Source: Solobacterium sp. (GTDB taxonomy: Bacteria; Bacillota_I; Bacilli_A; Erysipelotrichales; Erysipelotrichaceae). Taken from it: a DNA stretch of 64,000 nt. The notes below the pieces were generated by a model. It was not told the DNA's origin. It saw only the letters and a list, made by a program, of their open reading frames with translations, and made no database searches. The stretch is from assembly GCA_017536885.1 (NCBI GenBank), contig JAFWCM010000224.1, forward strand, positions 42,013 through 106,012, given 5' to 3'. Below are positions 6,145 through 48,297 of this stretch, piece after piece. The first letter of the stretch is position 1. Each line of letters opens with the position of its first letter. The translations under genes and the position numbers were made by a program.

Positions 6145-6172
6145 ATTATATTTGTTTACGATTTAAAGTCAA
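6145..6172 (-). promoter_or_regulatory. SigA-type promoter of groES-groEL
   Basis: The minus strand reads TTGACT-16 nt-TATAAT (-35 at 6167-6172, -10 at 6145-6150). Confidence 0.7.
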
Positions 6173-6179
6173 CAGGCTT

Positions 6180-6206
6180 TTAGCACTCTTTTGTTTTAAG
6201 TGCTAA
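6180..6206. promoter_or_regulatory. Second CIRCE element, upstream of the -35 box
   Basis: TTAGCACTC-N9-AAGTGCTAA. Confidence 0.75.
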
Positions 6207-6360
6207 TCCCGGCGTCTTCCCTCTTCCATCCCCGGGCATGCGGGAATCAGTCTCTTCCTCTTTGCCGGCCGGTCACCGCTTCTTCGCCTTTTTTCTTCTT
6301 TTCGTTTTTCTGTGTAGGAAATCATGGACCTTCCCATGCTTTGTACTATACTTGTGTGGT

Positions 6361-8313
6361 ATGAAAAAACGACTTTCTCCCGCAAAAGGGTTCGCATTCC
6401 TCTATTTTTCCGCAGCTTTCTTTTTTCTTTTTATGACCGATGTCAACGCCTATATCGATCCGTCGGTCATGACCTATGCGATTCAGGCGATCGCCGGCAT
6501 TGCGATTGCCCTCGGTACGGTATTCGGCATTTACTGGCGGAAGATCCGATCGGTGCTGTTTCATGACAGTTTTGATCAGAAGATCCGTGAATCGGACAAT
6601 CTGGAGTTCCGCGATCCCGCCTCTTCGGAAATACGTGCCCTGCACTTCAGTGAACAGACAGCGCAGAAGGAAGAGAAAAAACCATTCCGGGAATTCCCTG
6701 CGGCGGTGATGCTTTCCGTCGCGATGGGATTCATGCTTTGTTTCTATACGCCGCTGGAAATCTATTTCACGAACATCTTCGAGTTTGAATATGACGTCTA
6801 TGCGATCTTCCGGTATATCCTTCTGCTGTTTCTGATCGTCACCTCCGTATTGATCTCCGGGTTCTTCCTGGTCCGGCTGATTTCGAAGAAGCTGTTCTTC
6901 GGATGCGTGGTTCTGGGGCTGATCGCATTTCTCGCCTTTTACATTCAGGGCAATTTCCTGATCGGGGATCTGCCGCCTTCCGACGGCACCGAGGTCGACT
7001 GGTCGATGTTCCGTGCCCAGGAGATGCAGTCGCTGATTCTCTGGATTGCAGTGACAGCTGCCGTGATCCTGTTTGCGGTGGTATTGAAGCGGAAGAAGTT
7101 TCTGAATTTCACGAAGTTCATCACCTCCGCAATCACCGCCGTGCTGGCCGTCACCCTGGTCATCGTCTGCGTAAGAAACAACGGCCTGCAGCGCAAGACC
7201 CAGTTATGCATCAGCCATGAAGGCCTTGCGGAAATGTCCTCCGACAAAAACTTCGTGATCTTTGTCGTGGATGCGGTCGACTCGAAGACCTTCGCAGATC
7301 TCATGAACAGTGAAGACCCTTATTTCGCCGATGTGTTCGAGGACTTCACCTACTATCCCGATACATTGGCCGTCTATCCTTTTACGGTGCTTGCGGTGCC
7401 CCACATCCTTACCGGCGAGCGGTATCTCTGCCAGGATGAATTCCGCTCCTACTATACCGGGGCGATGAAGCAGTCGCCGATTCTCAGACGGCTGAAAAAC
7501 GAGAACTATGTAAGAGCGATCTACGATGTACAGGATGTCGTATTCGAGGATCCCGAATTCTTCGAATACGAAAACATCTTTGAGCGGCCCTATGGCCTTG
7601 GCAGCGCGAAGACCTTCATGCTGGATGAGCTGCGGATGGCGTTCTTCCTCTATATGCCCTATCAGCTCAAGCGCTATGAGCCCTACGCATTGTTCAACCT
7701 GCAGAATGAAAAAGCGGCCGAGTATTATTACCAGTGGTATGATCCCTGGTTCTACGATTATTTCGATGACCATAAGGTCGAGGTAAAACCGGAAAAGCGG
7801 TTCCGCTACATTCACATTGAAGGCGCTCATCCTCCCTATCGCTACAACCGGGATCTTGAGGATGTCGAAGACACCGATGAAGCTTCCTATGAAGCCAATG
7901 TCGAGGCATGCGTCACGGTGCTGGAAAAATACCTGCAGTCTCTGAAGGATTCCGGCACCTATGACAACAGCGCCGTGATCATCCTCGCGGATCACGGATA
8001 TGCGGACAAGGTCCACAGCAGCGGAAGACAGAATCCTCTGCTTCTGATCAAAGGATTCAATGAAAAGCATGCGATGCTTACTTCCGATGCGGCGATCGGC
8101 TACGATGATCTGCAGGAGATCTATCAGAATCTGCTCGACGGAAAAAGCGGCGAAGCAGTCCTTCCGGAAAATACCGGGCCGGAGCGCTCCCGCAGCTACA
8201 TCCAGTTTGAATATGATGATCTGAATCATCTTACCGAACTTGAGCTCACCGGGGCCAAGGCGGATGACTTCGAAGCACTGAAGCCCACCGGAAAAACATA
8301 TTCCAGAGAATGA
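6361..8313 (+). CDS. LtaS/EptA-like sulfatase-fold membrane phosphotransferase, paralog 1
   Basis: N-terminus: MKKRLSPAKGFAFLYFSAAFFFLFMTDVNA-YIDPSVMTYAIQAIAGIAIALGT, followed by multiple TM segments. Extracytoplasmic domain motifs: NFVIFVVDAVDS, YPFTVLAVPHILTGE and IILADHGY, NPLLLIKGF. The start was chosen by alignment to the three paralogs. Confidence 0.8.
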   Translation: MKKRLSPAKGFAFLYFSAAFFFLFMTDVNAYIDPSVMTYAIQAIAGIAIALGTVFGIYWRKIRSVLFHDSFDQKIRESDNLEFRDPASSEIRALHFSEQTAQKEEKKPFREFPAAVMLSVAMGFMLCFYTPLEIYFTNIFEFEYDVYAIFRYILLLFLIVTSVLISGFFLVRLISKKLFFGCVVLGLIAFLAFYIQGNFLIGDLPPSDGTEVDWSMFRAQEMQSLILWIAVTAAVILFAVVLKRKKFLNFTKFITSAITAVLAVTLVIVCVRNNGLQRKTQLCISHEGLAEMSSDKNFVIFVVDAVDSKTFADLMNSEDPYFADVFEDFTYYPDTLAVYPFTVLAVPHILTGERYLCQDEFRSYYTGAMKQSPILRRLKNENYVRAIYDVQDVVFEDPEFFEYENIFERPYGLGSAKTFMLDELRMAFFLYMPYQLKRYEPYALFNLQNEKAAEYYYQWYDPWFYDYFDDHKVEVKPEKRFRYIHIEGAHPPYRYNRDLEDVEDTDEASYEANVEACVTVLEKYLQSLKDSGTYDNSAVIILADHGYADKVHSSGRQNPLLLIKGFNEKHAMLTSDAAIGYDDLQEIYQNLLDGKSGEAVLPENTGPERSRSYIQFEYDDLNHLTELELTGAKADDFEALKPTGKTYSRE

Positions 8314-8322
8314 TCCATGCAC

Positions 8323-8350
8323 AGGGGCTGTGATCCGCAGCCCCTTTTAT
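8323..8350 (+). terminator. Intrinsic terminator after LtaS-like paralog 1
   Basis: AGGGGCTG-tgatccg-CAGCCCCT followed by TTTT. Confidence 0.5.
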
Positions 8351-8480
8351 GATGTTGTCTTCTGAACGCTTTGACGGGGCAAAGCATACCGGAGTTTTCC
8401 CGCGGAAAGCGGATGCCGGGAGTTCAGCGTTTCTGCAATCCTTCGGACAATGCCGGAAAGAAGAGAGATTTTCACGGACG

Positions 8481-8524
8481 AAAAAAGGGCTGCAGCGTAT
8501 GGATTTCCTTCGGGAAACCAGCCC
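8481..8524 (-). terminator. Candidate intrinsic terminator after the PEP mutase 1 operon
   Basis: The minus strand reads GGGCTGGTTTCCCGAAGGAAATCCATACGCTGCAGCCC followed by TTTTTT (nested stems). Confidence 0.45.
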
Positions 8525-8554
8525 GGCCGCTGCGGCTCTTCTTTATTTGCGGAA

Positions 8555-9850
8555 TTACAGCTCGTCGATCAGGGTGATGATCTCTTTGATCGGAAGAAGA
8601 CGGTCATCCACTTCCTTGGCACGATGGTATTTCAGGATATCGCGGGCGGTTTCCTGCATCGCCGGGAAGGCGCTTCTCGTCAGCTGATTTGCGTAGATGA
8701 CAATGTTCACCCCGTGCTCTGAAAGCTCTTCTTCGGTAATCGTATTGAAGCTGCTCGGAACCACGACGATCGGGGTTTTCTGATCCGTTCTGCGGAACTC
8801 ATCACAGAACGCGAGGATTTCCGCCGGATCTTTCTTCCGGGAATGAATCATGATGCCGTCGGCACCCGCTTCCACATAGGCGCGGCATCTCTTCAGTGCG
8901 TCTTCCATCCCCTGCTCGAGGATCAGGGATTCACATCTGGCGATGATCATGAAATCATCCGTCAGCTGCGCCTCCTTGCCGGCTTTGATCTTGGCGGAGA
9001 ACTCTTCGATATCCGCCTGCGTCTGTTCCACCTCGGTGCCGAACAGGCTGTTTTTCTTAAGCCCCTTCTTGTCTTCGATGATGACGGCGGAGACTCCCAT
9101 TCTTTCGAGAGTTCTGACGTTGTATACGAAATGTTCCGCAAGACCTCCGGTATCGCCGTCGAGGATGATCGGCTTGGTGGTCACTTCCATGATGTCATCG
9201 ATCGTACGCAGCCGCGAGCTCATGTCCACCAGCTCGATATCCGGCTTGCCCTTGGCGGTGGAATCGCAGAGTGAGCTCACCCACATCGCATCAAACTGAT
9301 CCAGACGGCCGTCATGTTCGACAATCGTCTTCTCGACGATCAGACCGGTGAGGCCGCTGTGGGCCTCCATGACCTTGACGATCGGCGTCATTTCAATCAG
9401 CTGTCTCAGCCGCTTTCTGCGGTATTCGGGCATCGAAAGCTTTTCGATCAGCTGCCGGTCGATTTTCTTCACGGCCGGATTATAGGTATATCCCACTTCA
9501 ATCAGCTCGCCGCCGTACGTTTTCAGAAGGTTCAGCACATTCTCGCGGATCGCGGATTCGGGCCCTTCTCTCCAGTTGTCGCCATGGATGACATAGTCGG
9601 GCTTCAGCTGTTCGATCACATGGTCATACATGATGTCATCCTGTACGATGACCTCATCCACACCCTCGAGATTCTCATACATCCGGACTCTTTCCTCCAG
9701 CGGCACCGTCGGAAAGCGGTTGAACCGGATCGCCGCCTTGTCGCTTAAGGCGCCGACTACGACGCGGCCGTATTTCTCTGCCTCTTTGATGATGTTCTTA
9801 TGTCCCTCATGGATTACGTCCGTACAGAACACGGTATACACTGTCTTCAT
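8555..9850 (-). CDS. aepX: Cytidylyltransferase (HxGH type)-phosphoenolpyruvate mutase fusion, copy 1
   Basis: N-terminal domain: MKTVYTVFCTDVIHEGHKNII...HGDNWREG. Mutase domain: AMWVSSLCDS, ILDGDTGG, VIIEDKKGLKKNSLFG, IIARCES. The ATG at 9850 is preceded by a GAGGGGGA RBS. Confidence 0.9.
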   Translation of the reverse strand: MKTVYTVFCTDVIHEGHKNIIKEAEKYGRVVVGALSDKAAIRFNRFPTVPLEERVRMYENLEGVDEVIVQDDIMYDHVIEQLKPDYVIHGDNWREGPESAIRENVLNLLKTYGGELIEVGYTYNPAVKKIDRQLIEKLSMPEYRRKRLRQLIEMTPIVKVMEAHSGLTGLIVEKTIVEHDGRLDQFDAMWVSSLCDSTAKGKPDIELVDMSSRLRTIDDIMEVTTKPIILDGDTGGLAEHFVYNVRTLERMGVSAVIIEDKKGLKKNSLFGTEVEQTQADIEEFSAKIKAGKEAQLTDDFMIIARCESLILEQGMEDALKRCRAYVEAGADGIMIHSRKKDPAEILAFCDEFRRTDQKTPIVVVPSSFNTITEEELSEHGVNIVIYANQLTRSAFPAMQETARDILKYHRAKEVDDRLLPIKEIITLIDEL

Positions 9851-9864
9851 ATTCTCAGTCCCCC

Positions 9865-11001
9865 TCAGTTTTCTGCGTAGTATACAGGCACGGCGATATT
9901 GCATGCCTTCAGTGCGTCTTTGAATACCTCAAAGAACGCTTCGATATCCGCTTCGTCAATCGCTCCCAGCGAACAGAGACGGAAGGTGTTGGCGGAGCTC
10001 ACAAACCCGGGATAAATCGTATATCCGCGCTCATAACAATAGTCGTGAAGCCGGTCGAAATTCCAGTTGGGATCATCGGGATAAACCGCCGATGAGACCA
10101 GTCCCGCCCGGATTTCGGCGGGAAGCAGCTGGCGGAAGCCGAGCTCTTCAAGGCCTTTGTTTATGGCGTTATAGACCCTTGTATGCCTTGCCCATTTGCC
10201 TTCTTCCCCTTCCTGCCAGTATTCCTTGATCGCCTGAACCAGGGCATAGATCGTCTGGACCGGCGGGGTGAAATGCATTTCTCCGGTTCTCTCGAAGAAT
10301 TCATACTGCAGGTAGAGATTGCAGTAATAGGAGCGTTTGGGATAATCCCTGCTCGCCTCGATGATCGACCGTCTTCCGATGATGAAGGAGATGCCGGTAA
10401 ATGCCATCAGGCCCTTCTGGGCACTGGCCATCAGGAAGTCGATGTTTTCTTCTTCGATATGAATCGGCCGCATCGCATAGACGCTTGTGGTGTCGCAGAC
10501 AAAGACCGCACCGTATTGATGCGCCAGGGCGCCGAGCTCCTTTGCCGGATTCAGAAGGCCGGTGACGGTTTCCTGGTAGGTCGTGTAGACCATGGCGATA
10601 TCCGGATTGTTCTTCAGGGTTTCTTCGACTTTGGCAAGGTCGGGCTGTTCGGTGATCGGGAATTTGAGATCAATGCACGGCAAGCCGTAATACATCGCGA
10701 TTTCCGCGGCTCTTGCGGAATAGTTGCCGTTGTCTACGACCAGAATCTTCTTCCCTTCCGGAAGAAGAGAGCTGATGCATACGTCGATATTGATCGTTCC
10801 GCTTCCGCAGAACAGCACGCTGGTATAGGTGTCGGGATCGCCGTGGACGATCTTTACGAGATCTTCCCGCAGACCTTTGAACAGCGAGGAGAATTCCTTT
10901 TCCCGGGGACAGATGTCGGGAACCACCTGCGCATATTTGACGGTATCCGTCGTGGTGGAAGGTCCCGGGTTCAGCAGTATTTTTCGTTCGATCTTTTTCA
11001 T
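9865..11001 (-). CDS. aepZ: 2-aminoethylphosphonate:pyruvate aminotransferase (class V, PhnW/AepZ-like)
   Basis: MKKIERKILLNPGPSTTTDTV...; a PLP-lysine-type region MASAQKGLMAFTGISF; adjacent to the PEP mutase gene. Confidence 0.85.
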   Translation of the reverse strand: MKKIERKILLNPGPSTTTDTVKYAQVVPDICPREKEFSSLFKGLREDLVKIVHGDPDTYTSVLFCGSGTINIDVCISSLLPEGKKILVVDNGNYSARAAEIAMYYGLPCIDLKFPITEQPDLAKVEETLKNNPDIAMVYTTYQETVTGLLNPAKELGALAHQYGAVFVCDTTSVYAMRPIHIEEENIDFLMASAQKGLMAFTGISFIIGRRSIIEASRDYPKRSYYCNLYLQYEFFERTGEMHFTPPVQTIYALVQAIKEYWQEGEEGKWARHTRVYNAINKGLEELGFRQLLPAEIRAGLVSSAVYPDDPNWNFDRLHDYCYERGYTIYPGFVSSANTFRLCSLGAIDEADIEAFFEVFKDALKACNIAVPVYYAEN

Positions 11002-11026: not shown

Positions 11027-11965
11027 TCATCCGTAGATGCCGGGGTTGTAGGACTGATCAAAGGCGCACAGTTCCCGGAAGGTATCAATTTCGGTGATAT
11101 CCTCCTGGCGGCATTCCTGTATTTTCACATGGTAGTCGTTTCGGAAGACGACCAGCGGCACCTGTTCCCAGTAGAGCTCTTTTCCGCCGGGCATCCGATA
11201 TGCCTCTTCGATATGATCGGCCAGCTTTCTGCCGTCCTCTTCATTCCAGAAGGATATGCCGACCATCTGGTAATTCTCCTCGCCCTGCCCGCCGACTTTC
11301 TCCTCGGTGATCGTTCCGTCTTTTACGGTAAAGCACCAGTCATCCGACCATGCCTTTCGGATCGCCAGAAAGTCGGAGGTATAGTGGTACCTGCGAAGAA
11401 TCTTCGGATTGGAGATCAGCAGATCGCTTTCCAGCACATAGGCGTTGGAGATCAATGTCCTGACACACAGCATTGAATAGATATTGTTGGTTTCGTTGTA
11501 TCTCTGATTCTCGATGAACCGGATCATCGGATATTTATACCGAAGCAGATCAAACTGCTCGGCAAGATATCCCCGGATGATATAGATCTCCTCAATCCCG
11601 ATCGCAAGGCAGGCATCGATCAGCCGGTCGATGATCCGCTCCCCGTTCACCCGGACCAGAGGCTTGGGGGTATTCAGCGTCACCGGCACCAGCCGCGATC
11701 CGAATCCCGCCGCAAGAAAGATGGCCCGCTTCACGCGGTAGGGTTCCAGCGCCGCAAGCCCCGAGGAAGTGATTCTTCCCTCCTGTACAAACCCCTTTGA
11801 AACCAGGGTTTTCAGTACGCGGTTGACGGTCGCCAGGGAATAGACGGTGCCTTCCTGAATCCGCCTCTGACTCATCGGCTCACTGCAGTCCGCAAGCAGC
11901 GCCAGAATTCCGAACTCTTTTTCGGAAAGCATCTCTTTCCGGTTTTCTTCGTTTCGTTCTGCCAT
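11027..11965 (-). CDS. Winged-helix (MarR-like) domain fused to a LicC/PntC-type nucleotidyltransferase
   Basis: The N-terminal ~75 aa read EFGILALLADCSEPMSQRRIQEGTVYSLATVNRVLKTLVSKGFV (wHTH-like). They are followed by AIFLAAGFGSRLVPVTLNTPKPLVRVNGERIIDRLI...NETNNIYS (LicC-family NTP-transferase). Confidence 0.8.
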   Translation of the reverse strand: MAERNEENRKEMLSEKEFGILALLADCSEPMSQRRIQEGTVYSLATVNRVLKTLVSKGFVQEGRITSSGLAALEPYRVKRAIFLAAGFGSRLVPVTLNTPKPLVRVNGERIIDRLIDACLAIGIEEIYIIRGYLAEQFDLLRYKYPMIRFIENQRYNETNNIYSMLCVRTLISNAYVLESDLLISNPKILRRYHYTSDFLAIRKAWSDDWCFTVKDGTITEEKVGGQGEENYQMVGISFWNEEDGRKLADHIEEAYRMPGGKELYWEQVPLVVFRNDYHVKIQECRQEDITEIDTFRELCAFDQSYNPGIYG

Positions 11966-12007: not shown

Positions 12008-12065
12008 ATAAATAAAAAACAGAATGTTTCACAATTCCGGTCTTATATGACCCGTGAAACATTCT
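12008..12065 (-). terminator. Intrinsic terminator or attenuator between LtaS-like paralog 2 and the LicC-like gene
   Basis: A perfect 12-bp inverted repeat AGAATGTTTCAC-N21-GTGAAACATTCT (12021-12032 / 12054-12065). On the minus strand it is followed by GTTTTTTATTTAT. Confidence 0.5.
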
Positions 12066-12090
12066 ATTCGTTTCTGAACCTGCCTGTCAA
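12061..12090 (-). promoter_or_regulatory. Candidate SigA promoter overlapping the terminator stem
   Basis: The minus strand reads TTGACA (12085-12090)-18 nt-TAGAAT (12061-12066). The -10 box lies in the upstream arm of the inverted repeat. Confidence 0.3.
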
Positions 12091-12091
12091 C

Positions 12092-14065
12092 TCAGTCGGG
12101 TACGAATTCATTCCCCGTCTCGTGCATGGCATCGAAGTCGCCGGCATAGCCTTCTGTTTCAAATTCCCAAATCAGCTCCGGGGTATTGAAGTTGAAGGCG
12201 AGAAAGCGCCTCTTGCGCGCCTGTCCCTCGGTAAGATCAAAGAGCTGATCGGAACTGTTACCGGCGAGCAGTTTCTGATACATCTCCTGGAAATCGATCT
12301 GGGAGATCGGAATCTCCGATGTTTCCATCGCGTGCTTTTCGCCGAAGCCCTTGATCAGAAGCAGCGGGTTGGAACGGCCTGTCAGGGCGTTGATCTCATC
12401 CTCGTCCCGGTATCCGTGATCGGCGAGGACGATGATTGCGGAATTGTCAAAGATGCCGGCTTCCTTCAGTTTGGAAAGATAATTGTGCACGATCGTGATG
12501 CTTGCCTGCACATTCTGGGAATAGGAGCCGTCCTGTGTGGAAATCTCGTTGACATCCTTGTCAAAGTGGAACGGCACATGTGCCCCTTCGAGATGGATGA
12601 ACCGGAAACACGGCTGATCCACAAAGGAGAACTCCGTCTGTTTCTGGGTGTTGTTGAACCAGATGTTCTTTCCGATAAACGGTTCCTGCTGGCCGATCGC
12701 GCGGTGCTGGATGTTTTCAAACATATCCTCATGGGAGAACAGCGGCTTGAGCGGATACGGCATGTACTGGAACCAGGTCATGTAAAAACTCTGCCGGGCG
12801 TATTCGCCGATCGAATCGAGAACATAGTGGTCATCCATGACATTGTCGAAGCGGTAGATGCCCCTGTCCGCATAGGTCAGCTGGTCCTCATACATGCCGA
12901 GCAGATACCCCTCTTCCTCCAGGGATGCCAGCAGTTTCGAGCGGTTCATCGCCCGGGTTTCAAAGACTTCGAAGTCCTCCTGGTTTTCAAACCATTCGCC
13001 AGTCAGGATAAAGGGAACTGCGTGGCTGGTGTAGGTGTAGGAACCGACGGTATTGGGAAAGTAGGTGAAATCCTCGAAATACTCCCTGTATTCGGGATCC
13101 TCGCTTTCCATAAGATCGCGGAAGATGCCCGAATCCGTCGCATCGATCATGAAGAAGATCACGTTTTTGTTTTCCGACATCACAAAGAGATTCTTCGTGG
13201 TGACGGAAGCGGAGGCCCTGGGAGTGAAGCCGTTTTTCTGATAGGCGACATTGAACAGGGTTGCGGCCATGATCAGCGTCAGAAAGACGGCGATATTATT
13301 GGCGGCCAGAAAAAAGACTCGCCGCTTCATCCGGACCGCCATCAGGACCACCAGCACTCCGACGACAAGAATCAGAACATAGGACTGCAGTTTCTGAACA
13401 CCGTACTTCGACCAGTCAAAACTGGTGCCGTCCATCGGCGGAAGTCCTCCGGCCATGAAATTGCCGTGAATGAAGCTGATGATGAGAAACGCCAGCCCGA
13501 GCGCCGTGAAGAAGGTGTAGACCGCCGGCCCAGCCTTATGCGCGATGAAATACACCAGGCTTCCGACCGCCATGCCGAAGGCAAACATGATGCCCACCGC
13601 CGGCAGGATCGAATAGATATCGTACAGAAACTCCCGCATATTGCCGAGATACAGCATCAGCGGTGAATACAGCATCCACAGAAAGCTGACCGCCAGCGTA
13701 ATCAGTATTCCGCTGCGCAGGCTGAAGGTCTTTTTCTTTTTTTCCTGACTTTTCCGGATGGAAGAAATCTCCTCGCCGGAAAGAAAGGACAGGGCACGCA
13801 GGGTGTCTCCGCTTTCGGGATCGTGAAAGACGAGATCATCGCCCGCAATATCGCGGTTTGCCTCTTCCTCTTTTCCCAGAATCACCTTCCGGATGCGGCG
13901 GCCGTAGATTCCGACTGCCGTTCCCAGCGCAATGGCGATGCCGGCGATTGCCTGGATCGCATAGGTGAGAACCGAAGGATCCACATAGGCCCGCACATCG
14001 GTCATGAACAGAAAGAAACAGCAGACGGTGAAGTACAGATAACGGAACAGCTTATCCGGCTTCAC
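12092..14065 (-). CDS. LtaS/EptA-like sulfatase-fold membrane phosphotransferase, paralog 2
   Basis: (V)KPDKLFRYLYFTVCCFFLFMTDVRA-YVDPSVLTYAIQAIAGIAIALGT; NVIFFMIDATDS; YTYTSHAVPFILTGE; IVLADHGY. The GTG start at 14065 has a GGGAGAG RBS and matches the paralog N-termini. It overlaps the upstream stop by 14 nt. Confidence 0.8.
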   Translation of the reverse strand: MKPDKLFRYLYFTVCCFFLFMTDVRAYVDPSVLTYAIQAIAGIAIALGTAVGIYGRRIRKVILGKEEEANRDIAGDDLVFHDPESGDTLRALSFLSGEEISSIRKSQEKKKKTFSLRSGILITLAVSFLWMLYSPLMLYLGNMREFLYDIYSILPAVGIMFAFGMAVGSLVYFIAHKAGPAVYTFFTALGLAFLIISFIHGNFMAGGLPPMDGTSFDWSKYGVQKLQSYVLILVVGVLVVLMAVRMKRRVFFLAANNIAVFLTLIMAATLFNVAYQKNGFTPRASASVTTKNLFVMSENKNVIFFMIDATDSGIFRDLMESEDPEYREYFEDFTYFPNTVGSYTYTSHAVPFILTGEWFENQEDFEVFETRAMNRSKLLASLEEEGYLLGMYEDQLTYADRGIYRFDNVMDDHYVLDSIGEYARQSFYMTWFQYMPYPLKPLFSHEDMFENIQHRAIGQQEPFIGKNIWFNNTQKQTEFSFVDQPCFRFIHLEGAHVPFHFDKDVNEISTQDGSYSQNVQASITIVHNYLSKLKEAGIFDNSAIIVLADHGYRDEDEINALTGRSNPLLLIKGFGEKHAMETSEIPISQIDFQEMYQKLLAGNSSDQLFDLTEGQARKRRFLAFNFNTPELIWEFETEGYAGDFDAMHETGNEFVPD

Positions 14066-31764: not shown

Positions 31765-32334
31765 TCAATTTTGCACGATCCTCTGCGATTCCGCAAACAG
31801 ATCGCCGAACTCTCTCAGTATCCCGTTTACAACCTCTTCCGGAGCTTCGCCATTCATATCGTACAACCCTTCCGCCAGGCAAAACACCCCGTTTCCGTAA
31901 TACTCCAGATCTTCCCGGATCATTTTGAGACAGTGATCCTTATATCTGTTTTTGTATTCGTCATCGGTATACGCCGCATCGTTTTCATCGGTGAAGATCA
32001 GGCGGTCAAAGATGTGTTCCGGACTGTCCGTAAGTTCGATGCCGTGAACCCCGGCCTGAGCGAATACGGTCAGGGCATCCATCCGGTACGTGATCGGTGT
32101 GACCGCAATCACCTTGTTTCCCGCCTTGCGGAACAGGGAATCGAGAACTTCAATGCGCTTTTCATCCCGCTCTTCCAGCGTAAAACTGTCTTTGAATTCT
32201 GTCTGGCTCATCTGCACATCCTTCCGCACTTCCTCATCGAGATCGTAAAAATCGTATCCGGCCCGTTTTGCGGGCAGTTCTCCTATGGTGCTTTTTCCGA
32301 CGTTGGAAACCCCGAACAGACAGATGTTTTTCAT
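31765..32334 (-). CDS. P-loop kinase, shikimate-kinase (AroK)-like
   Basis: MKNICLFGVSNVGKSTIGELPAKRAGYDFYDLDEEV (Walker A plus a DxD-like motif), 189 aa. ATGA overlap with the upstream gene. Confidence 0.6.
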   Translation of the reverse strand: MKNICLFGVSNVGKSTIGELPAKRAGYDFYDLDEEVRKDVQMSQTEFKDSFTLEERDEKRIEVLDSLFRKAGNKVIAVTPITYRMDALTVFAQAGVHGIELTDSPEHIFDRLIFTDENDAAYTDDEYKNRYKDHCLKMIREDLEYYGNGVFCLAEGLYDMNGEAPEEVVNGILREFGDLFAESQRIVQN

Positions 32335-33611
32335 ACCGTCTTTTCTCCTTTGTTTTCTGTTTCCTCCTTCCCCGATGCCTGGCCGGCCGCATGATATGCA
32401 AGCATGCCGGCCGAAAGCCAGAAGAAGCTCGTCTCGGGGGCGGTGTGCGCCGTCCCGAGAATCGCCCGGTCGAGCATCGACTCTGCCAGCACCCCGGCAA
32501 GCAGTACGGCCTTCATCGTCCAGCCCGGCTTCTCACGGACCATCTGACGGAGAAAGAGCACCGCAAAGACCGCGATGGGAACCGTCCCGCAGAGCCCCGT
32601 CCAGAAGAGAAGGTTGAAGATGAGGTTATGGGTATCAAAGTACGTCCGGAACATGTGGGTAAAGTTCATCCATCCGTATCCGAAGATCGGACGGGCAAGG
32701 AACCCCTGCCAGGCCGAAGCCCAGTATGCGCTTCGGCCGGTGGTGAGAAACCGCAGGGTCTTCTCCGGATCCTCCCTCATCTGTTCCATCATCCCCATCA
32801 GGGCATCGTGCTTTACCGCAAAGACCAGTACCGCCCCGGCAAAGAGTCCGCCTGTGATCAGAAGACAGGCTGTCTTCGCAGAGGTTTTGCGCTTCAGAAA
32901 GCGATACAGCAGGATCAGTGCGACAACGGCGAGCTCCACCATCGAAGTTCTGACATCGAGGTAAACCACCGTGATCACGGCGATGATGATGCATACTGCC
33001 GCAAGGATCGGATTCCACTTCTTTTCTTCCAGAAGGAAGAGGCTCAATATCACGCTGAGGGCGCAGAGATTTCCGCCGTCGGCGGAATATCCGAACAGCC
33101 CGCAGAAGCGCGTCTCCTCTCCCATGTGGCCATAGGTAAAGATGCGCGATCCATCCGCAAGCCCCCCCGGCAGCGAAAGATTCATCTTATAGCATGCCAG
33201 AAGGAACAGTGATCCCGCCGCAAGAAGCACGATGAACCCGGCGCTGATCTCTGCCAGCAGGGTATAGAACTTCCGTGCACTTTCCGCGCTTTCTCTTTTC
33301 GGCAAAGAGAAGATCAGAAGAAGACTCATCACCTGCCAGAGCGAAAGCCAGGCATCGGGATTGACCTCACTGAGATTGACCAGGGTCGAAACCAGCGCTC
33401 CGGCCGCAAAGGCCAAAAGACATGCCTGCAGGTGATCCGGCCGGCGCTTTTCCTTCAGTGCTTCAGCGAAAAAAACCAGCGGCCACAGGATCGTCAGCGC
33501 CGTCAGGATCTCATTGATCCACGGAAAAAAGTGATAGATGATTCCCCGCAGAAGATACCCGATCACATAGACGAAAACATAGTTTTTCCGGTCCAGTACA
33601 AACGATTTCAT
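32331..33611 (-). CDS. O-antigen ligase/Wzy_C-family polytopic membrane protein
   Basis: 426 aa with multiple TM segments. The loop ARPIFGYGWMNFTHMFRTYFDTHNLIFNLLFWTGLCG is typical of the Wzy_C family. Confidence 0.7.
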   Translation of the reverse strand: MKSFVLDRKNYVFVYVIGYLLRGIIYHFFPWINEILTALTILWPLVFFAEALKEKRRPDHLQACLLAFAAGALVSTLVNLSEVNPDAWLSLWQVMSLLLIFSLPKRESAESARKFYTLLAEISAGFIVLLAAGSLFLLACYKMNLSLPGGLADGSRIFTYGHMGEETRFCGLFGYSADGGNLCALSVILSLFLLEEKKWNPILAAVCIIIAVITVVYLDVRTSMVELAVVALILLYRFLKRKTSAKTACLLITGGLFAGAVLVFAVKHDALMGMMEQMREDPEKTLRFLTTGRSAYWASAWQGFLARPIFGYGWMNFTHMFRTYFDTHNLIFNLLFWTGLCGTVPIAVFAVLFLRQMVREKPGWTMKAVLLAGVLAESMLDRAILGTAHTAPETSFFWLSAGMLAYHAAGQASGKEETENKGEKTV

Positions 33612-34732
33612 TTCAGATGTTTCAGATATTCCATAAAGTTCTGCTTGTTTTCCAGCGCCGTTGTCGTCGGCCGGCCAAGATCTGCCCTGGCACCGATCGA
33701 AGACATCACTTCAATCAGGGAAAGACAATGATTTTCCTTTGCCTGGCGCAGAGCTTCATCAAGCTCTTCAAAGGTTTCGGCACGCACGGCGCTTTGATAT
33801 CCGCAGGCTTTTGCGATCGCCGTAAGATCCGCAGAGCTTGCGGCCGTGGGCATTCCCCCTACCGTCTCATGCGCTTCGTTATTGATGATGATATGGATGA
33901 GGTTATCCGGGGAAACGCTGCCGATCACGGCCATAGCCCCCATATGCATGAGTGCCGCCCCATCCCCGTCGATACACCAGACGGTAGTTTCGGGTTTGTT
34001 TATGGCAGTGCCCAGGGCAATACTGGAAGCGTGGCCCATCGATCCTACCGTCAGGAAATCCCTCTCGTGGCTCTCTTTTGCCCGGGCGCGGATTTCAAAC
34101 AGTTCCCGGCTTGCCTTGCCGGTGGTGGAGATGATCGGATCACTGCCGCTGGCGGCGGTGATGTGTTCGATGATCTCTTCCCGCTTCATGGCATAGCGGT
34201 TGCGGTAGTCCACGGGTTCCGCGTAGGTCAGCGCTCCCTTGCGGATGATGAAGGCAACATCCTTTCCCTCGCCGAGAAGTGCTCTGAACTGTTCCATGAC
34301 AGTGCTCAGTTCTTCTTCGGTGGTGTCTTTTGACACGATGAAAGAGGTGACCCCCATGACATCCATCAGGCTCACGGTCACTTCCCCCTGATAGATATGC
34401 TGGGGTTCATCATGAACGCCCGGTTCCCCGCGCCAGCCGATCACAAAGATCATCGGAATCTGATAGACCTTCTCATTGAGCAGCGACGCCAGGGGATTGA
34501 TGATGTTTCCCTCGCCGCTGTTCTGCATGTATACCAGGGGCACCTTGCCGGTGGCGAGATGATATCCCGCCGCGATCGCAGTGCAGTTTCCCTCATTTGC
34601 GGCGATGATGTGATGGTTCGGGTCGATTCCGTAAGTATGCATCAGATAGTTGCACAGCGGCTTCAGCTGGGAATCGGGAACGCCGGTAAAAAACTCCGCA
34701 CCGAGAATTCGGACAAAAGACTCCGCCTTCAT
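33608..34732 (-). CDS. aepY: Phosphonopyruvate decarboxylase (ThDP-dependent)
   Basis: FFTGVPDSQLKPLCNYL...AANEGNCTAIAAGYHLATGK...VGSMGHASSIALG...CIDGDGAALMHMG...IIINNEAHETVGG, 374 aa. Confidence 0.9.
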   Translation of the reverse strand: MKAESFVRILGAEFFTGVPDSQLKPLCNYLMHTYGIDPNHHIIAANEGNCTAIAAGYHLATGKVPLVYMQNSGEGNIINPLASLLNEKVYQIPMIFVIGWRGEPGVHDEPQHIYQGEVTVSLMDVMGVTSFIVSKDTTEEELSTVMEQFRALLGEGKDVAFIIRKGALTYAEPVDYRNRYAMKREEIIEHITAASGSDPIISTTGKASRELFEIRARAKESHERDFLTVGSMGHASSIALGTAINKPETTVWCIDGDGAALMHMGAMAVIGSVSPDNLIHIIINNEAHETVGGMPTAASSADLTAIAKACGYQSAVRAETFEELDEALRQAKENHCLSLIEVMSSIGARADLGRPTTTALENKQNFMEYLKHLK

Positions 34733-35166
34733 TCTTTTTCTCCGCGCTCTTCGATCGCATGGATGATCGCGGTGGAACTGACACCCTTGGTGTACTCGGG
34801 TTCAATCACCTTGCCGCCCCACTCTGCCATGGTCGCAATCGCCTTTTCCCGGACCTTTGCCAGCGGGCCTTCTCTCCAGTCGGTTCCGTGCACCATATAA
34901 TCGGGTTTGAGTTCCCGCAGATTCGGTTCATAATCCTTGGTGATCTGCGGCACGACTTTCACGACACCCTTCATGTTTTCGATCACGATTTTTCTCTGAT
35001 CATATTTCATGTAGGGAACCCGCTTGTAGCTCGCAATCGCCTCATCGGTAAACAGACCGACAATCACGTCGCCATAGGATGCGGCGGTCTTCAGGATGTT
35101 CACGTGTCCGGGGTGAACAATGTCCGCCGCCATCGGTACATACACAGTTTTTCTTTTTTCGCTCAT
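34729..35166 (-). CDS. Stand-alone TagD/ECT-like cytidylyltransferase (HxGH type)
   Basis: VYVPMAADIVHPGHVNIL...HGTDWREG...EYTKGVSSTAII (RTxGISTT-like motif retained), 145 aa. Confidence 0.85.
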   Translation of the reverse strand: MSEKRKTVYVPMAADIVHPGHVNILKTAASYGDVIVGLFTDEAIASYKRVPYMKYDQRKIVIENMKGVVKVVPQITKDYEPNLRELKPDYMVHGTDWREGPLAKVREKAIATMAEWGGKVIEPEYTKGVSSTAIIHAIEERGEKE

Positions 35167-35172: not shown

Positions 35173-36474
35173 TTACTCCAGTTCATCTATCATTCGTATA
35201 ATCCTGCCGAAAGGCATCAGTTTCTCTTCCGCTTCTTCACTTCTGTGATTTCTCAGAATGCTTTCCGCCGCTTCCTGCATAGCCGGCACCGCCGCCCGCA
35301 TCAGCTGGTTGGCATAGATCACGACATTGATGCCGTGCTCCGAAAGCTGTTCCAGCCTCTCTCCGCAGAAACTTGTCGGCACCACGATGATCGGGGTGGT
35401 TTTGTCCGTTTCGCGGAAGCGGTCACAGAACTCATAGATCTCATCCGGTTCTTTCCTGCGGGAGTGAATCATGATTCCCTCGGCTCCCGCTTCAACATAG
35501 GCCCGGCACCGCTTCAGTGCGTCTTCCATCCCTTTTTCCAGAATCAGTGACTCACATCTTGCGATGATCATGAAGTCATTCGTGCGCCGGACGCTTTTCC
35601 CCGCGGATATCTTGGCACAGAACGCTTCGATCTCATCCTGGGTCTGTTCCGCCTCGGTTCCGAACAGGCTGTTTTTCTTGAGCCCCGTCTTGTCTTCGAT
35701 GATCACCGCCGATACCCCCATTCGCTCCAGGGAACGCACGAGGTATACGAAGTGTTCCTGGCGGCCGCCGGTATCCCCGTCAAAGATGATCGGCTTGGTG
35801 GTTACCTCCATCAGCTCTTCAATCGTCTGAAAGCGGCTCGTCATATCCACGAGTTCAATATCCGGCTTTCCCTTGTCAGTCGAATCGCACAGCGAGCTAA
35901 CCCACATCGCGTCAAACTGGCGGGCACCGCCCTCTTCATAGACGACGGTCTTTTCGACAATGAGTCCGGTCAGGCCGCTGTGGGCTTCCATCGCGGTGAC
36001 CACCGGCTTCATCGCAATCATCTTCTTCAGTTTGGACCGCCGCTGATCGGGAAGCGAGCTCTGATCGCGGAAATAGCTGTCCAGCTTTTTGTAGGCGGGA
36101 TTGGCGGAATAGGGAAATTCGACCAGCTCGCCGCCATAGGTCTTCAGCACTTCGATCACTTCTTCCCGTACCGGAGAGAGAACGCCTTCCTTCCAGTTGT
36201 CCCCATGAACGACATAGTCGGGCCGGTATTTCAGCAGGTTTTCCCGAAAGCTCAGCGTCTTCTGGGGGACGATGGTTTTCACTTCCTTCAGATCTTCGAA
36301 GATCTTTTTGCGCTCCTGGTAGTCAAGAAGCGGAAAGCGTTTATAGCTGGCGACGGCCTCATCCGTAAACAGACCGATCATCACATCACCAAGCCCTGCC
36401 GCGTTTCTGATGAGATTGATATGACCGCCGTGAAGGATGTCTGTGCTCACCGCGACATAAACTGTTTTTGACAT
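35173..36474 (-). CDS. aepX: Cytidylyltransferase (HxGH type)-phosphoenolpyruvate mutase fusion, copy 2
   Basis: MSKTVYVAVSTDILHGGHINLI...HGDNWKEG, then AMWVSSLCDS, IFDGDTGG, VIIEDKTGLKKNSLFG, IIARCES. By eye, long runs of the mutase domain are identical to copy 1. Confidence 0.9.
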   Translation of the reverse strand: MSKTVYVAVSTDILHGGHINLIRNAAGLGDVMIGLFTDEAVASYKRFPLLDYQERKKIFEDLKEVKTIVPQKTLSFRENLLKYRPDYVVHGDNWKEGVLSPVREEVIEVLKTYGGELVEFPYSANPAYKKLDSYFRDQSSLPDQRRSKLKKMIAMKPVVTAMEAHSGLTGLIVEKTVVYEEGGARQFDAMWVSSLCDSTDKGKPDIELVDMTSRFQTIEELMEVTTKPIIFDGDTGGRQEHFVYLVRSLERMGVSAVIIEDKTGLKKNSLFGTEAEQTQDEIEAFCAKISAGKSVRRTNDFMIIARCESLILEKGMEDALKRCRAYVEAGAEGIMIHSRRKEPDEIYEFCDRFRETDKTTPIIVVPTSFCGERLEQLSEHGINVVIYANQLMRAAVPAMQEAAESILRNHRSEEAEEKLMPFGRIIRMIDELE

Positions 36475-46648: not shown

Positions 46649-47467
46649 TTATTTTCCGGCAATCATTTTGATATACGGGCTCAGGGAATACACCACCGCT
46701 GTCGGCAGGGAGAAGTTGCGGTGCAGATAATAGAAATACTCCCGGAAAGGAAGGCCTTTGACGCTTTCCTTTTTCTGAAGGCGGACGGCCAGCGGCAGGG
46801 AGCTGTCAAGCCAGCTGTTCTCCTTCTTTGTCTCATCGTTGCAGATACCGGCAAACTGGCTTGGGACCATGATGTCATAGCCGGCCCGGGTGATGCCGAA
46901 GCCATACTCGTAATCCCCGAAAGAATGACGGTAGATCTTCGGGATATTCGGCACTGCCATGAAGATCTTCCAGGGGATCAGCACACAGTTGCCGTTCAGC
47001 GTTTCGCACTTTACCCCTGCCTCATCCTCTGCCAGGAGATGCGTGTATTTCGGAACAAACCGGCTCTTGCGGCTGACGCCGCTGTAGATATGGCTTCCCT
47101 TCTCATTGCGGGTCGGTCCCACCCAGACAACATCATCCCGCTTTTCGGCAAGGTATTCGATGCAGTGGGGAAAAAAGCGCACATCGTCATTGAACATCAG
47201 GCAGTAGTCATACCCCCTGTCATCCCGCTTCTTGGCTTCCTCAATGGCCCAGCGCATCCCGCCGGAATAATAGAGACTGCCGTCTCCCTCAAGCACCGTG
47301 ACGTGATCCAATTCCTTCAGCGCTTCTCTGGTGCCGTCGGTGGAGCCGTCATCGACAATCAGGAACTCAAAGGAGAGTGACGGATTGCCTTCCGTAAGGG
47401 CAGTGACCGCACTGACCGTCTTTTCCTTTCGGTTGAAACAGGCCGCAAGACCCAGTACCTTCTTCAT
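46649..47467 (-). CDS. GT2 glycosyltransferase
   Basis: FEFLIVDDGSTDGT...CLMFNDDVRFFP (DxD context), 272 aa. Confidence 0.8.
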   Translation of the reverse strand: MKKVLGLAACFNRKEKTVSAVTALTEGNPSLSFEFLIVDDGSTDGTREALKELDHVTVLEGDGSLYYSGGMRWAIEEAKKRDDRGYDYCLMFNDDVRFFPHCIEYLAEKRDDVVWVGPTRNEKGSHIYSGVSRKSRFVPKYTHLLAEDEAGVKCETLNGNCVLIPWKIFMAVPNIPKIYRHSFGDYEYGFGITRAGYDIMVPSQFAGICNDETKKENSWLDSSLPLAVRLQKKESVKGLPFREYFYYLHRNFSLPTAVVYSLSPYIKMIAGK

Positions 47468-48297
47468 TTGAGCCTCGCTTTGATGTAGTGGCTCTGCCGG
47501 ACGTTTTCCGGCGGCAGTTCCATATAGTTCTTCCCGTACCGCCGCGTGCAGAAATCATCATATGCCTCAAATACGGGGAACTCATGTCCCTCAAACGGAA
47601 GGGTGGTGTATTTTACAAAATCATCATGTTTCATGACCAGAGCTTCGGAGTTGTCATTCCATGTCGCAAGTCCGACATACTCGCTGGTGTCAAACGGATA
47701 GGAATTTGCCAGTTCGATCAGCTCATCCCGGTATTTCCGATAGCCTACGGCATGGGCAGCCGCGATCACCGGAATTCTCGCCACGGCTTTGAGCTTTCCT
47801 TCCTTGCCCCGGACGGTTCCGGGAATCGTGATGGCACGGCCGATATTGCGCCGGTATTCTCCGAGCTTTTTCAGATATTCGGCCTGTTCTTCCTTTGCCG
47901 GAAAGCCGTCGATCGGGAACACATCAATCCAGATCCCCTCTCCCTCGTGTTCATAGAGCTTCGATTCCGGAAGAATCTCGCTGTCGCGCCGGGCAACCTT
48001 GGCATAGGCAAAGGCAAAATCATCGTCGTGCTCGCCGCTGAGCAGATAAAGATTCTCACCGAGATCCGCGTGATCTTCATAATACAGCTTCAGAAGACGC
48101 TGATAATCCGGCCGCGGCATGGCGACGTCGATATCGTCATCCCAGGGAATAAATCCCTGATGCCGCACCGCGCCGAGCAGCGTTCCGTAATAGAGGACAT
48201 AGTGCAGATCATATTGCTTGCAGAAAGCATCGAACTTCAGGAGAATCTCCAGCTCCGCTTCCTGTACTTCTCTTAAGGTCAGTGGTTCTTTTTCCAT
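47464..48297 (-). CDS. licD: LicD-family phospho-head-group transferase
   Basis: LREVQEAELEILLKFDAFCKQYDLHYVLYYGTLLGAVRHQGFIPWDDDIDVAMPR...IWIDVFPIDG. Confidence 0.85.
   Translation of the reverse strand: MEKEPLTLREVQEAELEILLKFDAFCKQYDLHYVLYYGTLLGAVRHQGFIPWDDDIDVAMPRPDYQRLLKLYYEDHADLGENLYLLSGEHDDDFAFAYAKVARRDSEILPESKLYEHEGEGIWIDVFPIDGFPAKEEQAEYLKKLGEYRRNIGRAITIPGTVRGKEGKLKAVARIPVIAAAHAVGYRKYRDELIELANSYPFDTSEYVGLATWNDNSEALVMKHDDFVKYTTLPFEGHEFPVFEAYDDFCTRRYGKNYMELPPENVRQSHYIKARLK

What the first reader, a model, noticed from the sequence alone, without database searches (positions are those of the whole stretch)
8555..11001. Two cytidylyltransferase-PEP mutase fusion paralogs, with the AEP pathway split between sub-loci ~25 kb apart
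Copy 1 (8555-9850) is followed only by the AEP transaminase. Copy 2 (35173-36474) is followed by a stand-alone cytidylyltransferase and the only phosphonopyruvate decarboxylase (33608-34732).

Neither module is self-sufficient: module 1 lacks the decarboxylase that pulls the unfavourable mutase equilibrium, and module 2 lacks the transaminase.

The mutase domains are highly similar at protein level and, over stretches I compared by eye (for example 8858-8960 versus 35479-35580), at DNA level. The N-terminal cytidylyltransferase domains are much more diverged. This points to duplication followed by sub-functionalisation of the nucleotidyl-activating half. One possibility is different phosphonate head groups, such as AEP versus a hydroxy- or methylated derivative.

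Nucleotidyltransferase-Ppm fusions have precedent: the bifunctional Fom1 of fosfomycin biosynthesis, and reports that such fusions are common. I have not seen two copies with a split pathway inside one glycan locus described.
Basis: partly seen in the sequence, partly recalled or inferred. Interest (0 to 1): 0.65.

Follow-up and report, generated by a model that had tools for sequence, protein, structure and literature searches.

The report
Two phosphonate operons sharing one pathway
A gut bacterium's cell-surface sugar locus carries two old, separately descended copies of the enzyme that makes carbon-phosphorus bonds, and in this window the two operons each lack one downstream step that the other supplies; this is a modest variant of a known pathway, not a recent duplication.

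Summary
Two cytidylyltransferase-PEP mutase (CT-Ppm) fusion genes lie on the minus strand, at 8555-9850 and 35173-36474. The window holds exactly one AEP transaminase (9865-11001) and one phosphonopyruvate decarboxylase (33608-34732). All four pass NCBIfam equivalog cut-offs, and every mutase catalytic residue I checked is the same in both copies.

The copies are not an in-genome duplication. Copy 1 nests inside a large clade that is 80-90% identical across Bacillota and Spirochaetota. Its usual cassette is LicC/PntC-like, AEPT, CT-Ppm, Ppd. Copy 2 belongs to a separate five-member clade whose cassette is CT-Ppm, Fom1-like stand-alone CT, Ppd, with no transaminase within 10 kb. Synonymous sites between the copies are saturated.

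Operon 1 is a canonical cassette without its ppd. That ppd-less form, next to groES, is kept in relatives at 90% and 95% identity under strong purifying selection.

Most likely both mutases feed one phosphonopyruvate pool, served by the single Ppd and the single AEPT. A second ppd or AEPT elsewhere in the genome could not be checked.

Verdict: new variant of a known kind, moderate to low interest.

The parts
12061..12090 (-). Promoter-like site (TTGACA-18-TAGAAT, 11 of 12 matches) upstream of operon 1
   Evidence: This is a consensus match only, not evidence of function.
11027..11965 (-). HTH-fused LicC/PntC-like nucleotidyltransferase, first gene of operon 1
   Evidence: Pfam NTP_transferase/NTP_transf_3 plus an HTH. 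Best solved relative is S. pneumoniae LicC 1JYK at E 6e-31; Tde-PntC 6PD1 scores 8e-14. A homologue at 60-71% identity sits in the same position in most of the roughly 55 canonical cassettes; others carry a more distant NTP-transferase downstream of CT-Ppm.
9865..11001 (-). 2-aminoethylphosphonate aminotransferase (AEPT), the only one in the window
   Evidence: TIGR03301, 435 bits against cut-off 360.8. tblastn finds no other copy.
8555..9850 (-). CT-Ppm fusion copy 1 (CT domain about 9431-9850, Ppm domain about 8555-9415), canonical gut clade
   Evidence: Pfam. TIGR02320, 420 bits against 319.6. Catalytic residues conserved. dN/dS against the 95% relative is 0.027 for Ppm and 0.061 for CT.
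8481..8544 (-). Terminator-like hairpin followed by U6, directly after the copy 1 stop codon, in the position where relatives carry ppd
   Evidence: dG -25.7 kcal/mol, z -2.0. No Ppd remnant by tblastn.
35173..36474 (-). CT-Ppm fusion copy 2, lineage-specific clade
   Evidence: Pfam. TIGR02320, 402 bits. Only four clusters at 79% identity or more, then a plateau at 64-69%. In the AF2 model the CT domain superposes on Fom1 CyTase 5X3D (TM 0.94, rmsd 1.1 A, 54% identity).
34729..35166 (-). Stand-alone Fom1-like cytidylyltransferase that keeps the YTxGxSST signature
   Evidence: 5X3D at E 4.5e-50. 56% identical to the Fom1 CT domain. It is the most conserved gene of cassette 2 (86-92% in relatives).
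33608..34732 (-). Phosphonopyruvate decarboxylase (Ppd), the only one in the window; its start overlaps the CT stop by 4 nt
   Evidence: TIGR03297, 462 bits against 312.5. tblastn.
32331..33611 (-). Wzy/O-antigen-ligase-like polymerase, translationally coupled to ppd
   Evidence: Pfam Wzy_C. The same position is occupied in relatives L013-L015.
31765..32334 (-). P-loop kinase-like protein (shikimate-kinase/AAA_18 fold), last gene of operon 2
   Evidence: Pfam. Absent from the 88% relative. Role unknown.
47464..48297 (-). LicD-family phosphotransferase, the likely transferase for a CMP-phosphonate; followed by a GT2 gene at 46649-47467
   Evidence: Pfam LicD. A LicD+GT2 pair lies immediately upstream of cassette 2 in relatives L013-L019.

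Best explanation
The window is part of a roughly 60-kb cell-envelope glycan super-locus. The organism is an uncultured ruminant-gut bacterium whose closest named genomes are MAGs labelled Solobacterium sp. The locus contains two phosphonate supply operons of separate descent.

Operon 1 is HTH-LicC/PntC-like, AEPT, CT-Ppm. It is the widespread 'gut' AEP cassette minus its terminal ppd.

Operon 2 is membrane proteins, CT-Ppm, Fom1-like CT, Ppd, Wzy, kinase. It is a lineage-specific cassette that never carries a transaminase nearby.

Proposed mechanism:
1. Either mutase converts PEP to phosphonopyruvate.
2. The single Ppd of operon 2 pulls the equilibrium by making phosphonoacetaldehyde.
3. The single AEPT of operon 1 makes AEP.
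4. AEP is activated with CTP by the LicC/PntC-like enzyme, and possibly by the Fom1-like CT.
5. LicD-type or other transferases place it on surface glycans.

Shown here: gene content, family membership, intact catalytic residues, separate phylogenetic origin, a conserved ppd-less operon 1, and purifying selection.

Inferred: the metabolite flow between operons, the substrates of the four nucleotidyltransferase modules, and the acceptor glycans.
For: - Family assignments pass curated cut-offs, and mutase active-site residues are conserved in both copies.
- There is one Ppd and one AEPT in 64 kb and no remnants. No alcohol dehydrogenase or other branch-point enzyme appeared in any ORF scanned.
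- In about 50 of the roughly 55 canonical loci that reach past the mutase, from many genera, ppd lies near CT-Ppm, and in about 35 of them directly after it.
- The ppd-less form next to groES is kept in the window and in the 95% (L023) and 90% (L105) relatives.
- Between the window and the 95% relative, dS is about 0.6-0.7 and dN/dS is 0.027 for the Ppm domain. The mutase half has therefore stayed under selection without an adjacent ppd.
- Cassette 2 (CT-Ppm, CT, Ppd) is conserved in relatives at 79-88% identity.
- Operon 1 has its own promoter-like site and a terminator-like hairpin. The genes of operon 2 overlap or are 6 nt apart.
- Both operons lie on one contig in at least three assemblies.
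- Literature: LicC-type PntC enzymes prefer AEP and co-occur with ppm-fused nucleotidyltransferases and LicD (PMC6697681).
Against: - Only 64 kb (about 78 kb counting the flanking loci) of the genome was seen. A second ppd or AEPT elsewhere cannot be excluded.
- Relatives that carry cassette 2 show no AEPT within 10 kb. Cassette 2 may therefore normally make something other than AEP.
- No substrate was tested for any enzyme.
- RNA evidence is negligible: two perfect 151-nt metatranscriptome contigs in copy 2 and nothing decisive for operon 1.
- In one relative about 90% identical to copy 2, the mutase C-terminus and ppd look disrupted. Cassette 2 is therefore not indispensable in every strain.
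Confidence: 0.55

Rival explanations
1. One reading: one CT-Ppm gene duplicated inside this genome, and the N-terminal cytidylyltransferase halves then sub-functionalised for different head groups.
For: The two proteins share the same architecture and are 62% identical, and the CT halves differ more than the Ppm halves.
Against: - Copy 1 is 80-85% identical over its full length (79-90% in the Ppm domain) to proteins of other genera and phyla, but only 62% (71% in the Ppm domain) to copy 2.
- Copy 2 forms a separate clade in 50 of 50 bootstraps, and the clade joining both copies spans at least 63 of 86 taxa.
- dS is saturated and there is no convincing conversion tract.
- Each copy sits in a different conserved cassette.
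Confidence: 0.05
2. Each operon is in fact complete, because a second ppd and/or a second AEP transaminase is encoded elsewhere in the genome, outside the window. The 'split' would then be an artefact of the 64-kb view.
For: - About 18% of ppm genomes have two neighbourhoods (PMC8942020).
- Ruminococcus sp. RGIG6695 has two CT-Ppm loci, each with its own ppd (L066, L079).
- AEPT/PhnW genes also occur in catabolic loci.
Against: - Nothing of the kind lies within the 64 kb or the 1.4 kb beyond the window start.
- The ThDP enzyme at the window edge is a YerE/JanthE-like carboligase, not a Ppd.
- The ppd-less operon 1 is stable over considerable divergence. That fits reliance on a ppd that is reliably present, and one is present 23 kb away.
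Confidence: 0.2
3. Operon 2 is a self-standing module for a different, non-AEP head group. An example would be 2-hydroxyethylphosphonate, made by a housekeeping reductase, activated by the Fom1-like CT and transferred by LicD. Operon 1 merely borrows phosphonoacetaldehyde from it to make CMP-AEP. The cell would then display two phosphonates made from one aldehyde pool.
For: - Cassette 2 occurs without any AEPT within 10 kb in three distinct relatives, always near LicD+GT2.
- The stand-alone CT is 56% identical to the Fom1 CyTase domain, whose substrate is HEP (PMC6697681), and it is the best conserved gene of the cassette.
- Such 'post-Ppd other' neighbourhoods are recognised as unexplained (PMC8942020).
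Against: - No dehydrogenase of the PhpC/FomC type or other tailoring enzyme lies in the cassette or the window.
- AEPT may simply be encoded elsewhere in those relatives.
- Sequence similarity to Fom1 does not fix the substrate.
Confidence: 0.2
4. The mutase half of copy 1 is a redundant relic. The gene is kept only for its CT domain or for expression of the operon.
For: Its partner ppd is missing, and a second mutase exists in the genome.
Against: dN/dS of the Ppm domain is 0.027 at dS about 0.6 against the 95% relative, which also lacks ppd. All catalytic residues are intact.
Confidence: 0.04

Closest known systems
Phosphonyl tailoring (Pnt) clusters of Treponema denticola, Atopobium rimae and Olsenella uli (Rice et al. 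2019, PMC6697681)
   Same: Ppm fused to a nucleotidyltransferase, plus a separate LicC-type PntC, AEPT, Ppd and LicD-like transferases, in cell-surface glycan neighbourhoods. Operon 1 is this cassette.
   Different: Here ppd is missing from the cassette and is supplied by a second, phylogenetically distinct cassette about 23 kb away. The PntC-like protein carries an N-terminal HTH. No enzyme of this locus has been assayed.
Fom1 of Streptomyces wedmorensis (bifunctional CyTase-Ppm; CyTase domain PDB 5X3D)
   Same: The same two-domain order. The CT2 model superposes on 5X3D (TM 0.94, 54% identity). The stand-alone CT matches 5X3D at E 4.5e-50.
   Different: There is no fosfomycin tailoring gene (Fom3, Fom4, FomC, FomD) in the window. 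The fused CT domains lack the YTxGxSST signature that Fom1 and the stand-alone CT keep. The context is glycan assembly, not an antibiotic cluster.
Genomes with two ppm neighbourhoods, such as Burkholderia (Li and Horsman 2022, PMC8942020)
   Same: Two phylogenetically separate Ppm genes in one genome. This is reported for about 18% of ppm-containing genomes.
   Different: As described in that paper, each Burkholderia neighbourhood carries its own branch-point enzyme (AEPT in one, PhnY in the other). Here the two operons appear to share one Ppd and one AEPT, and they lie inside one glycan super-locus.
'Post-Ppd other' gene neighbourhoods (PMC8942020)
   Same: Cassette 2 on its own (Ppm plus Ppd with no known branch-point enzyme nearby) fits this unexplained class.
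   Different: The class is heterogeneous. This cassette is defined by an extra Fom1-like stand-alone CT and an adjacent LicD+GT2 pair.

Membership tests
PEP mutase (Ppm) | Score above the equivalog cut-off of TIGR02320 | tested here: met
   Copy 1 scores 420.4 bits and copy 2 scores 402.2 bits against a cut-off of 319.55.
PEP mutase (Ppm) | EDKxxxxxNS motif and the Mg/substrate residues (Mytilus D58, D85, D87, E114, K120, N122, S123, R159, H190) | tested here: met
   All are identical in both copies. G47 is S in both.
PEP mutase (Ppm) | Catalyses the interconversion of PEP and phosphonopyruvate | not testable with these tools
   Needs an enzyme assay.
Phosphonopyruvate decarboxylase (Ppd) | Score above the equivalog cut-off of TIGR03297; ThDP N and C domains without the middle domain | tested here: met
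   462.2 bits against 312.5. Pfam gives TPP_enzyme_N and TPP_enzyme_C only.
AEP aminotransferase (PhnW/AepZ) | Score above the equivalog cut-off of TIGR03301 | tested here: met
   435 bits against 360.8.
PntC (AEP-specific LicC-type cytidylyltransferase) | LicC-like nucleotidyltransferase fold, encoded next to AEP biosynthesis genes | tested here: met
   1JYK at E 6e-31. In most canonical cassettes a close homologue (60-71% identical) sits just upstream of AEPT, as it does here.
PntC (AEP-specific LicC-type cytidylyltransferase) | Prefers AEP over phosphocholine | not testable with these tools
   According to PMC6697681 the specificity is steric and cannot be read from sequence motifs.
Fom1-type CyTase domain (PF01467) | HxGH motif and the cytidylyltransferase fold | tested here: met
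   HEGH in CT1, HGGH in CT2, HPGH in the stand-alone CT. HxGH is invariant in 44 relatives. Fold match to 5X3D has TM 0.94.
Fom1-type CyTase domain (PF01467) | C-terminal (R/Y)TxGxS(S/T)T signature | tested here: not met
   The fused domains read YTYNPAVKK (copy 1) and YSANPAYKK (copy 2). The signature is absent from all 234 close relatives and from the fusions of all 104 loci. The stand-alone CT keeps YTKGVSST.
Recent in-genome paralogues | The two copies are each other's closest relatives | tested here: not met
   NJ tree with bootstraps, identity ranking and saturated dS.

The most novel reading that the evidence does not exclude
Cassette 2 (CT-Ppm, Fom1-like stand-alone CT, Ppd, with LicD+GT2) is a previously uncharacterised module that decorates glycans with a non-AEP phosphonate derived from phosphonoacetaldehyde, for example HEP. 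In this genome its decarboxylase also feeds a ppd-less AEP operon, so one aldehyde pool would be partitioned into two CMP-activated head groups. Linked to this, the fused CT domains of the whole gut clade have lost the canonical signature. They may therefore act as something other than ordinary cytidylyltransferases, which would explain why a second nucleotidyltransferase always accompanies them.
Probability: 0.18. Interest if true: 0.6.

Novelty: new variant of a known kind. Interest (0 to 1): 0.33.

Why it matters
Phosphonate decoration of cell surfaces is common in gut bacteria, but the steps after C-P bond formation are poorly understood.

This locus shows that the canonical AEP cassette can persist for a long time without its own decarboxylase when a second cassette is present. 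Annotation pipelines that score single neighbourhoods would therefore misclassify both halves: one as 'no Ppd', the other as 'post-Ppd other'.

It also points to two testable questions for phosphonate biochemists:
- What does the AEPT-less CT-Ppm, Fom1-like CT, Ppd cassette make?
- Are the very common Ppm-fused PF01467 domains, which lack the family's C-terminal signature, true cytidylyltransferases?

None of this overturns current understanding.

Tried and rejected
- **Ppd pseudogene downstream of copy 1.** tblastn at E up to 10 finds nothing in 6000-8600. The spacer instead holds a terminator-like hairpin.
- **Hidden decarboxylase at the window edge.** The partial ThDP gene (1-1341) is a 596-aa ALS-like enzyme. 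Its best solved relative is JanthE (8RPH), a YerE-like carboligase, and it is not a Ppd.
- **Gene conversion between the copies.** The best 30-codon window reaches 88% nucleotide and 77% third-position identity, at the EDK motif. That is not significant after multiple testing, and overall third-position identity is 50%.
- **RNA evidence for co-expression.** One bovine metatranscriptome gave only two perfect 151-nt contigs, both in copy 2. The remaining matches are fragments from relatives.
- **Metagenome DNA runs.** They only re-confirm that both modules co-occur at low depth.
- **Finding the organism's own genome.** It is not among the GTDB species representatives. The best hit is Solobacterium sp. 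RGIG4449, at 88% to copy 2. A whole-genome check for a second ppd or AEPT was therefore not possible.
- **Searching with AEPT to find a transaminase in cassette-2-only relatives.** This returned only canonical-clade AEPTs and the ppd-less L105.
- **Composition.** The profile shows no island signal around either module.
Full report
**What is there**

All genes of the finding lie on the minus strand.

Operon 1, in transcription order:
- an HTH-fused nucleotidyltransferase (11027-11965);
- a class-V aminotransferase (9865-11001);
- CT-Ppm copy 1 (8555-9850).

The spacers are 25 and 14 nt. A promoter-like site (TTGACA-18-TAGAAT) lies at 12090-12061. A hairpin followed by U6 comes directly after the copy 1 stop codon. 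The next gene is a convergent LtaS/sulfatase-family gene, followed by groES-groEL.

Operon 2 runs through these genes:
- a sulfatase-family gene (38140-40101);
- a polytopic protein with no family match (36510-38117);
- CT-Ppm copy 2 (35173-36474);
- a 145-aa stand-alone CT (34729-35166);
- Ppd (33608-34732);
- a Wzy-like polymerase (32331-33611);
- a P-loop kinase-like gene (31765-32334).

From copy 2 onward, neighbouring genes overlap by 4 nt or are 6 nt apart.

Pfam and NCBIfam assign these genes firmly. Both fusions pass the PEP-mutase equivalog, the aminotransferase passes the AEP aminotransferase equivalog, and the ThDP enzyme passes the Ppd equivalog.

The rest of the window is glycan assembly. 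It contains three Bac_transf initiators, several flippases and polymerases, many glycosyltransferases, GDP-fucose synthesis genes, a LicD+GT2 pair (46649-48297), four sulfatase-family membrane proteins, and a YidC-TagF fusion.

**Checking the observation**

The two fusions are 62% identical over their full length. The CT halves are 42% identical at protein level and 54% at DNA level. The Ppm halves are 71% at both levels, but their third codon positions are only 50% identical.

tblastn with Ppd and AEPT proteins from canonical cassettes finds one locus each in the 64 kb and no remnants.

A ThDP gene is cut by the window start (1-1341). In full it is a 596-aa ALS-like enzyme. It reaches no NCBIfam cut-off, and its best solved relative is JanthE, a YerE-like carboligase. 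It sits beside an IspD-like CT and a LicD, and it is not a hidden Ppd.

Both operons occur on the same contig in at least three independent assemblies of ruminant-gut metagenomes.

The catalytic residues of Mytilus PEP mutase are all conserved in both copies. The list of residues comes from my knowledge of that enzyme's literature.

**Origin of the two copies**

Copy 1 has hundreds of relatives at 80-85% identity. The named ones are MAGs labelled Solobacterium, Treponemataceae, Spirochaetaceae, Lachnospiraceae and Oscillospiraceae. Copy 2 has only four clusters at 79-88% identity, followed by a plateau at 64-69%.

I made a census of 104 loci by tblastn.
- The copy-1 type normally sits in a cassette of LicC/PntC-like, (permease), AEPT, CT-Ppm, Ppd. 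About 50 of the roughly 55 canonical loci that extend past the mutase have a ppd near it, and in about 35 it directly follows CT-Ppm.
- The copy-2 type sits in CT-Ppm, stand-alone CT, Ppd. No AEPT lies within 10 kb, and a LicD+GT2 pair lies just upstream.

In a neighbour-joining tree of 92 fusions, copy 1 is nested within the canonical clade. Its sisters are its 95% relative (L024, the same gene as L023) and then a Solobacterium sp. cassette that does have ppd. Copy 2 forms its own clade in 50 of 50 bootstraps. The smallest clade holding both copies contains at least 63 of the 86 ingroup sequences. dS between the copies is saturated.

The copies are therefore old paralogues or xenologues, not an in-genome duplication.

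**Is the split real and stable?**

Operon 1 without ppd, lying directly upstream of groES, is also found in relatives whose copy 1 is 95% (L023) and 90% (L105) identical. An 85% relative (L106) has ppd.

Between the window and the 95% relative, dS is about 0.6-0.7. dN/dS is 0.027 for the Ppm domain and 0.061 for the CT domain. Copy 2 against its 88% relative gives 0.03-0.06.

Both mutases are therefore under purifying selection, and the ppd-less state is not a fresh accident. This fits reliance on a ppd elsewhere in the genome, and one lies 23 kb away.

I could not examine the rest of the genome. It is not among the GTDB representatives; the best hit is Solobacterium sp. RGIG4449 at 88%. A second ppd or AEPT therefore remains possible.

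**The nucleotidyltransferases**

The locus has four such modules.

- **The operon 1 enzyme.** It is LicC-like (1JYK at E 6e-31; Tde-PntC at 8e-14). Rice et al. showed that LicC-type PntCs in such clusters prefer AEP (PMC6697681).
- **The stand-alone CT of operon 2.** It is 56% identical to the Fom1 CyTase domain (E 4.5e-50) and keeps the YTxGxSST signature.
- **The two fused CT domains.** They keep HxGH and the other invariant core residues. The CT2 model superposes on HEP-CMP-bound Fom1 CyTase with TM 0.94.

Both fused domains nevertheless lack the C-terminal signature, as does every fusion in the 104 loci and in 234 close proteins. The replacing segment is variable. This is a trait of the whole clade, not an inactivating change in one copy.

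It may explain why a second nucleotidyltransferase usually accompanies these fusions, whether as a separate gene or as an extra N-terminal domain. That explanation is inference.

**Most likely working**

1. Either mutase makes phosphonopyruvate.
2. The single Ppd makes phosphonoacetaldehyde.
3. The single AEPT makes AEP.
4. The LicC/PntC-like enzyme, and possibly the Fom1-like CT, makes CMP-AEP.
5. LicD-type or other transferases decorate the glycans.

Phosphonopyruvate and phosphonoacetaldehyde are free metabolites, so a 23-kb separation of the genes poses no biochemical problem.

The main alternatives are these:
- a second ppd or AEPT lies outside the window;
- cassette 2 makes its own non-AEP head group. 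This would fit its AEPT-less occurrence in relatives and the 'post-Ppd other' class of Li and Horsman (PMC8942020).

**Comparison with what is known**

- Ppm-CT fusions make up 23.6% of Ppm enzymes, and clusters with both a fused and a separate nucleotidyltransferase are described (PMC6697681).
- Two ppm neighbourhoods occur in about 18% of ppm-containing genomes (PMC8942020).
- Ruminococcus sp. RGIG6695 has two CT-Ppm loci, each with its own ppd.

What is unusual here is the complementary gene content of two cassettes of different descent inside one glycan super-locus, together with the AEPT-less cassette carrying a Fom1-like stand-alone CT. That makes it a new variant of a known kind.

**Limits**

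- RNA evidence is negligible.
- The tree is distance-based.
- No activity was measured.
- In one relative about 90% identical to copy 2, the mutase C-terminus is replaced and ppd is frameshifted. Cassette 2 can therefore decay in some strains.

Noticed in passing
window 9431-9850 and 36054-36474 (fused CT domains); loci L001-L104: Every Ppm-fused PF01467 domain in this large gut clade lacks the C-terminal (R/Y)TxGxS(S/T)T cytidylyltransferase signature. Fom1 CyTase and the stand-alone CT keep it. The replacing segment is variable, while HxGH and other core residues are invariant. In most loci such a fusion is accompanied by another nucleotidyltransferase, as a separate gene or as an extra N-terminal domain.
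   Followed up: partly
L107 687-3752 and L108 939-2165 (relatives about 90% identical to copy 2): In this strain the copy-2 orthologue ends after 408 aa. Its C-terminal part is replaced, and a separate 65%-identical fragment follows. The same allele occurs in two samples. The adjacent ppd is frameshifted near residue 136. Cassette 2 may be decaying there.
   Followed up: partly
window 1-1341 (-) and 1354-2091 (-); L001 17787-21109: An IspD-like cytidylyltransferase, a 596-aa ThDP enzyme closest to the YerE-like carboligase JanthE (PDB 8RPH), and a LicD form a trio. The same ThDP-enzyme-plus-LicD combination lies beside the canonical phosphonate cassette in L022. This may be a route to a CDP-activated branched or unusual polyol or sugar head group.
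   Followed up: partly
window 14052-16130 (-): A single 692-aa ORF fuses a YidC/Oxa1-type insertase domain (60KD_IMP) to a TagF-like CDP-glycerol glycerophosphotransferase domain. It is conserved in all assemblies of this locus.
   Followed up: no
window 6433-8313 (+), 12092-14065 (-), 38140-40101 (-), 43558-45516 (+): Four paralogous LtaS/sulfatase-family polytopic membrane proteins are spread through the locus. Two of them directly flank the phosphonate operons. They may be head-group transferases. The copy next to copy 1 is absent from the 95% and 90% relatives.
   Followed up: no
window 16226-17485 (-), 26455-28086 (-), 36510-38117 (-), 40243-41841 (+), 41884-43494 (+): Five large predicted proteins have no Pfam match. 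A 419-aa protein of the same length, also without a Pfam match, lies upstream of the PntC-like gene in the Solobacterium cassette L022; I did not compare the two sequences.
   Followed up: no
window 31765-32334 (-): A shikimate-kinase/AAA_18-like P-loop kinase is translationally coupled to the Wzy gene at the end of operon 2. It is absent from the 88% relative. A kinase has no obvious role in a phosphonate head-group pathway.
   Followed up: no
L066 and L079 (Ruminococcus sp. RGIG6695); L026-L047: Another genome has two CT-Ppm loci, each with its own ppd. A third clade of fusions carries an extra N-terminal NTP-transferase domain (about 670 aa) and a roughly 1.1-kb gene between ppm and ppd, with no AEPT within 10 kb.
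   Followed up: no
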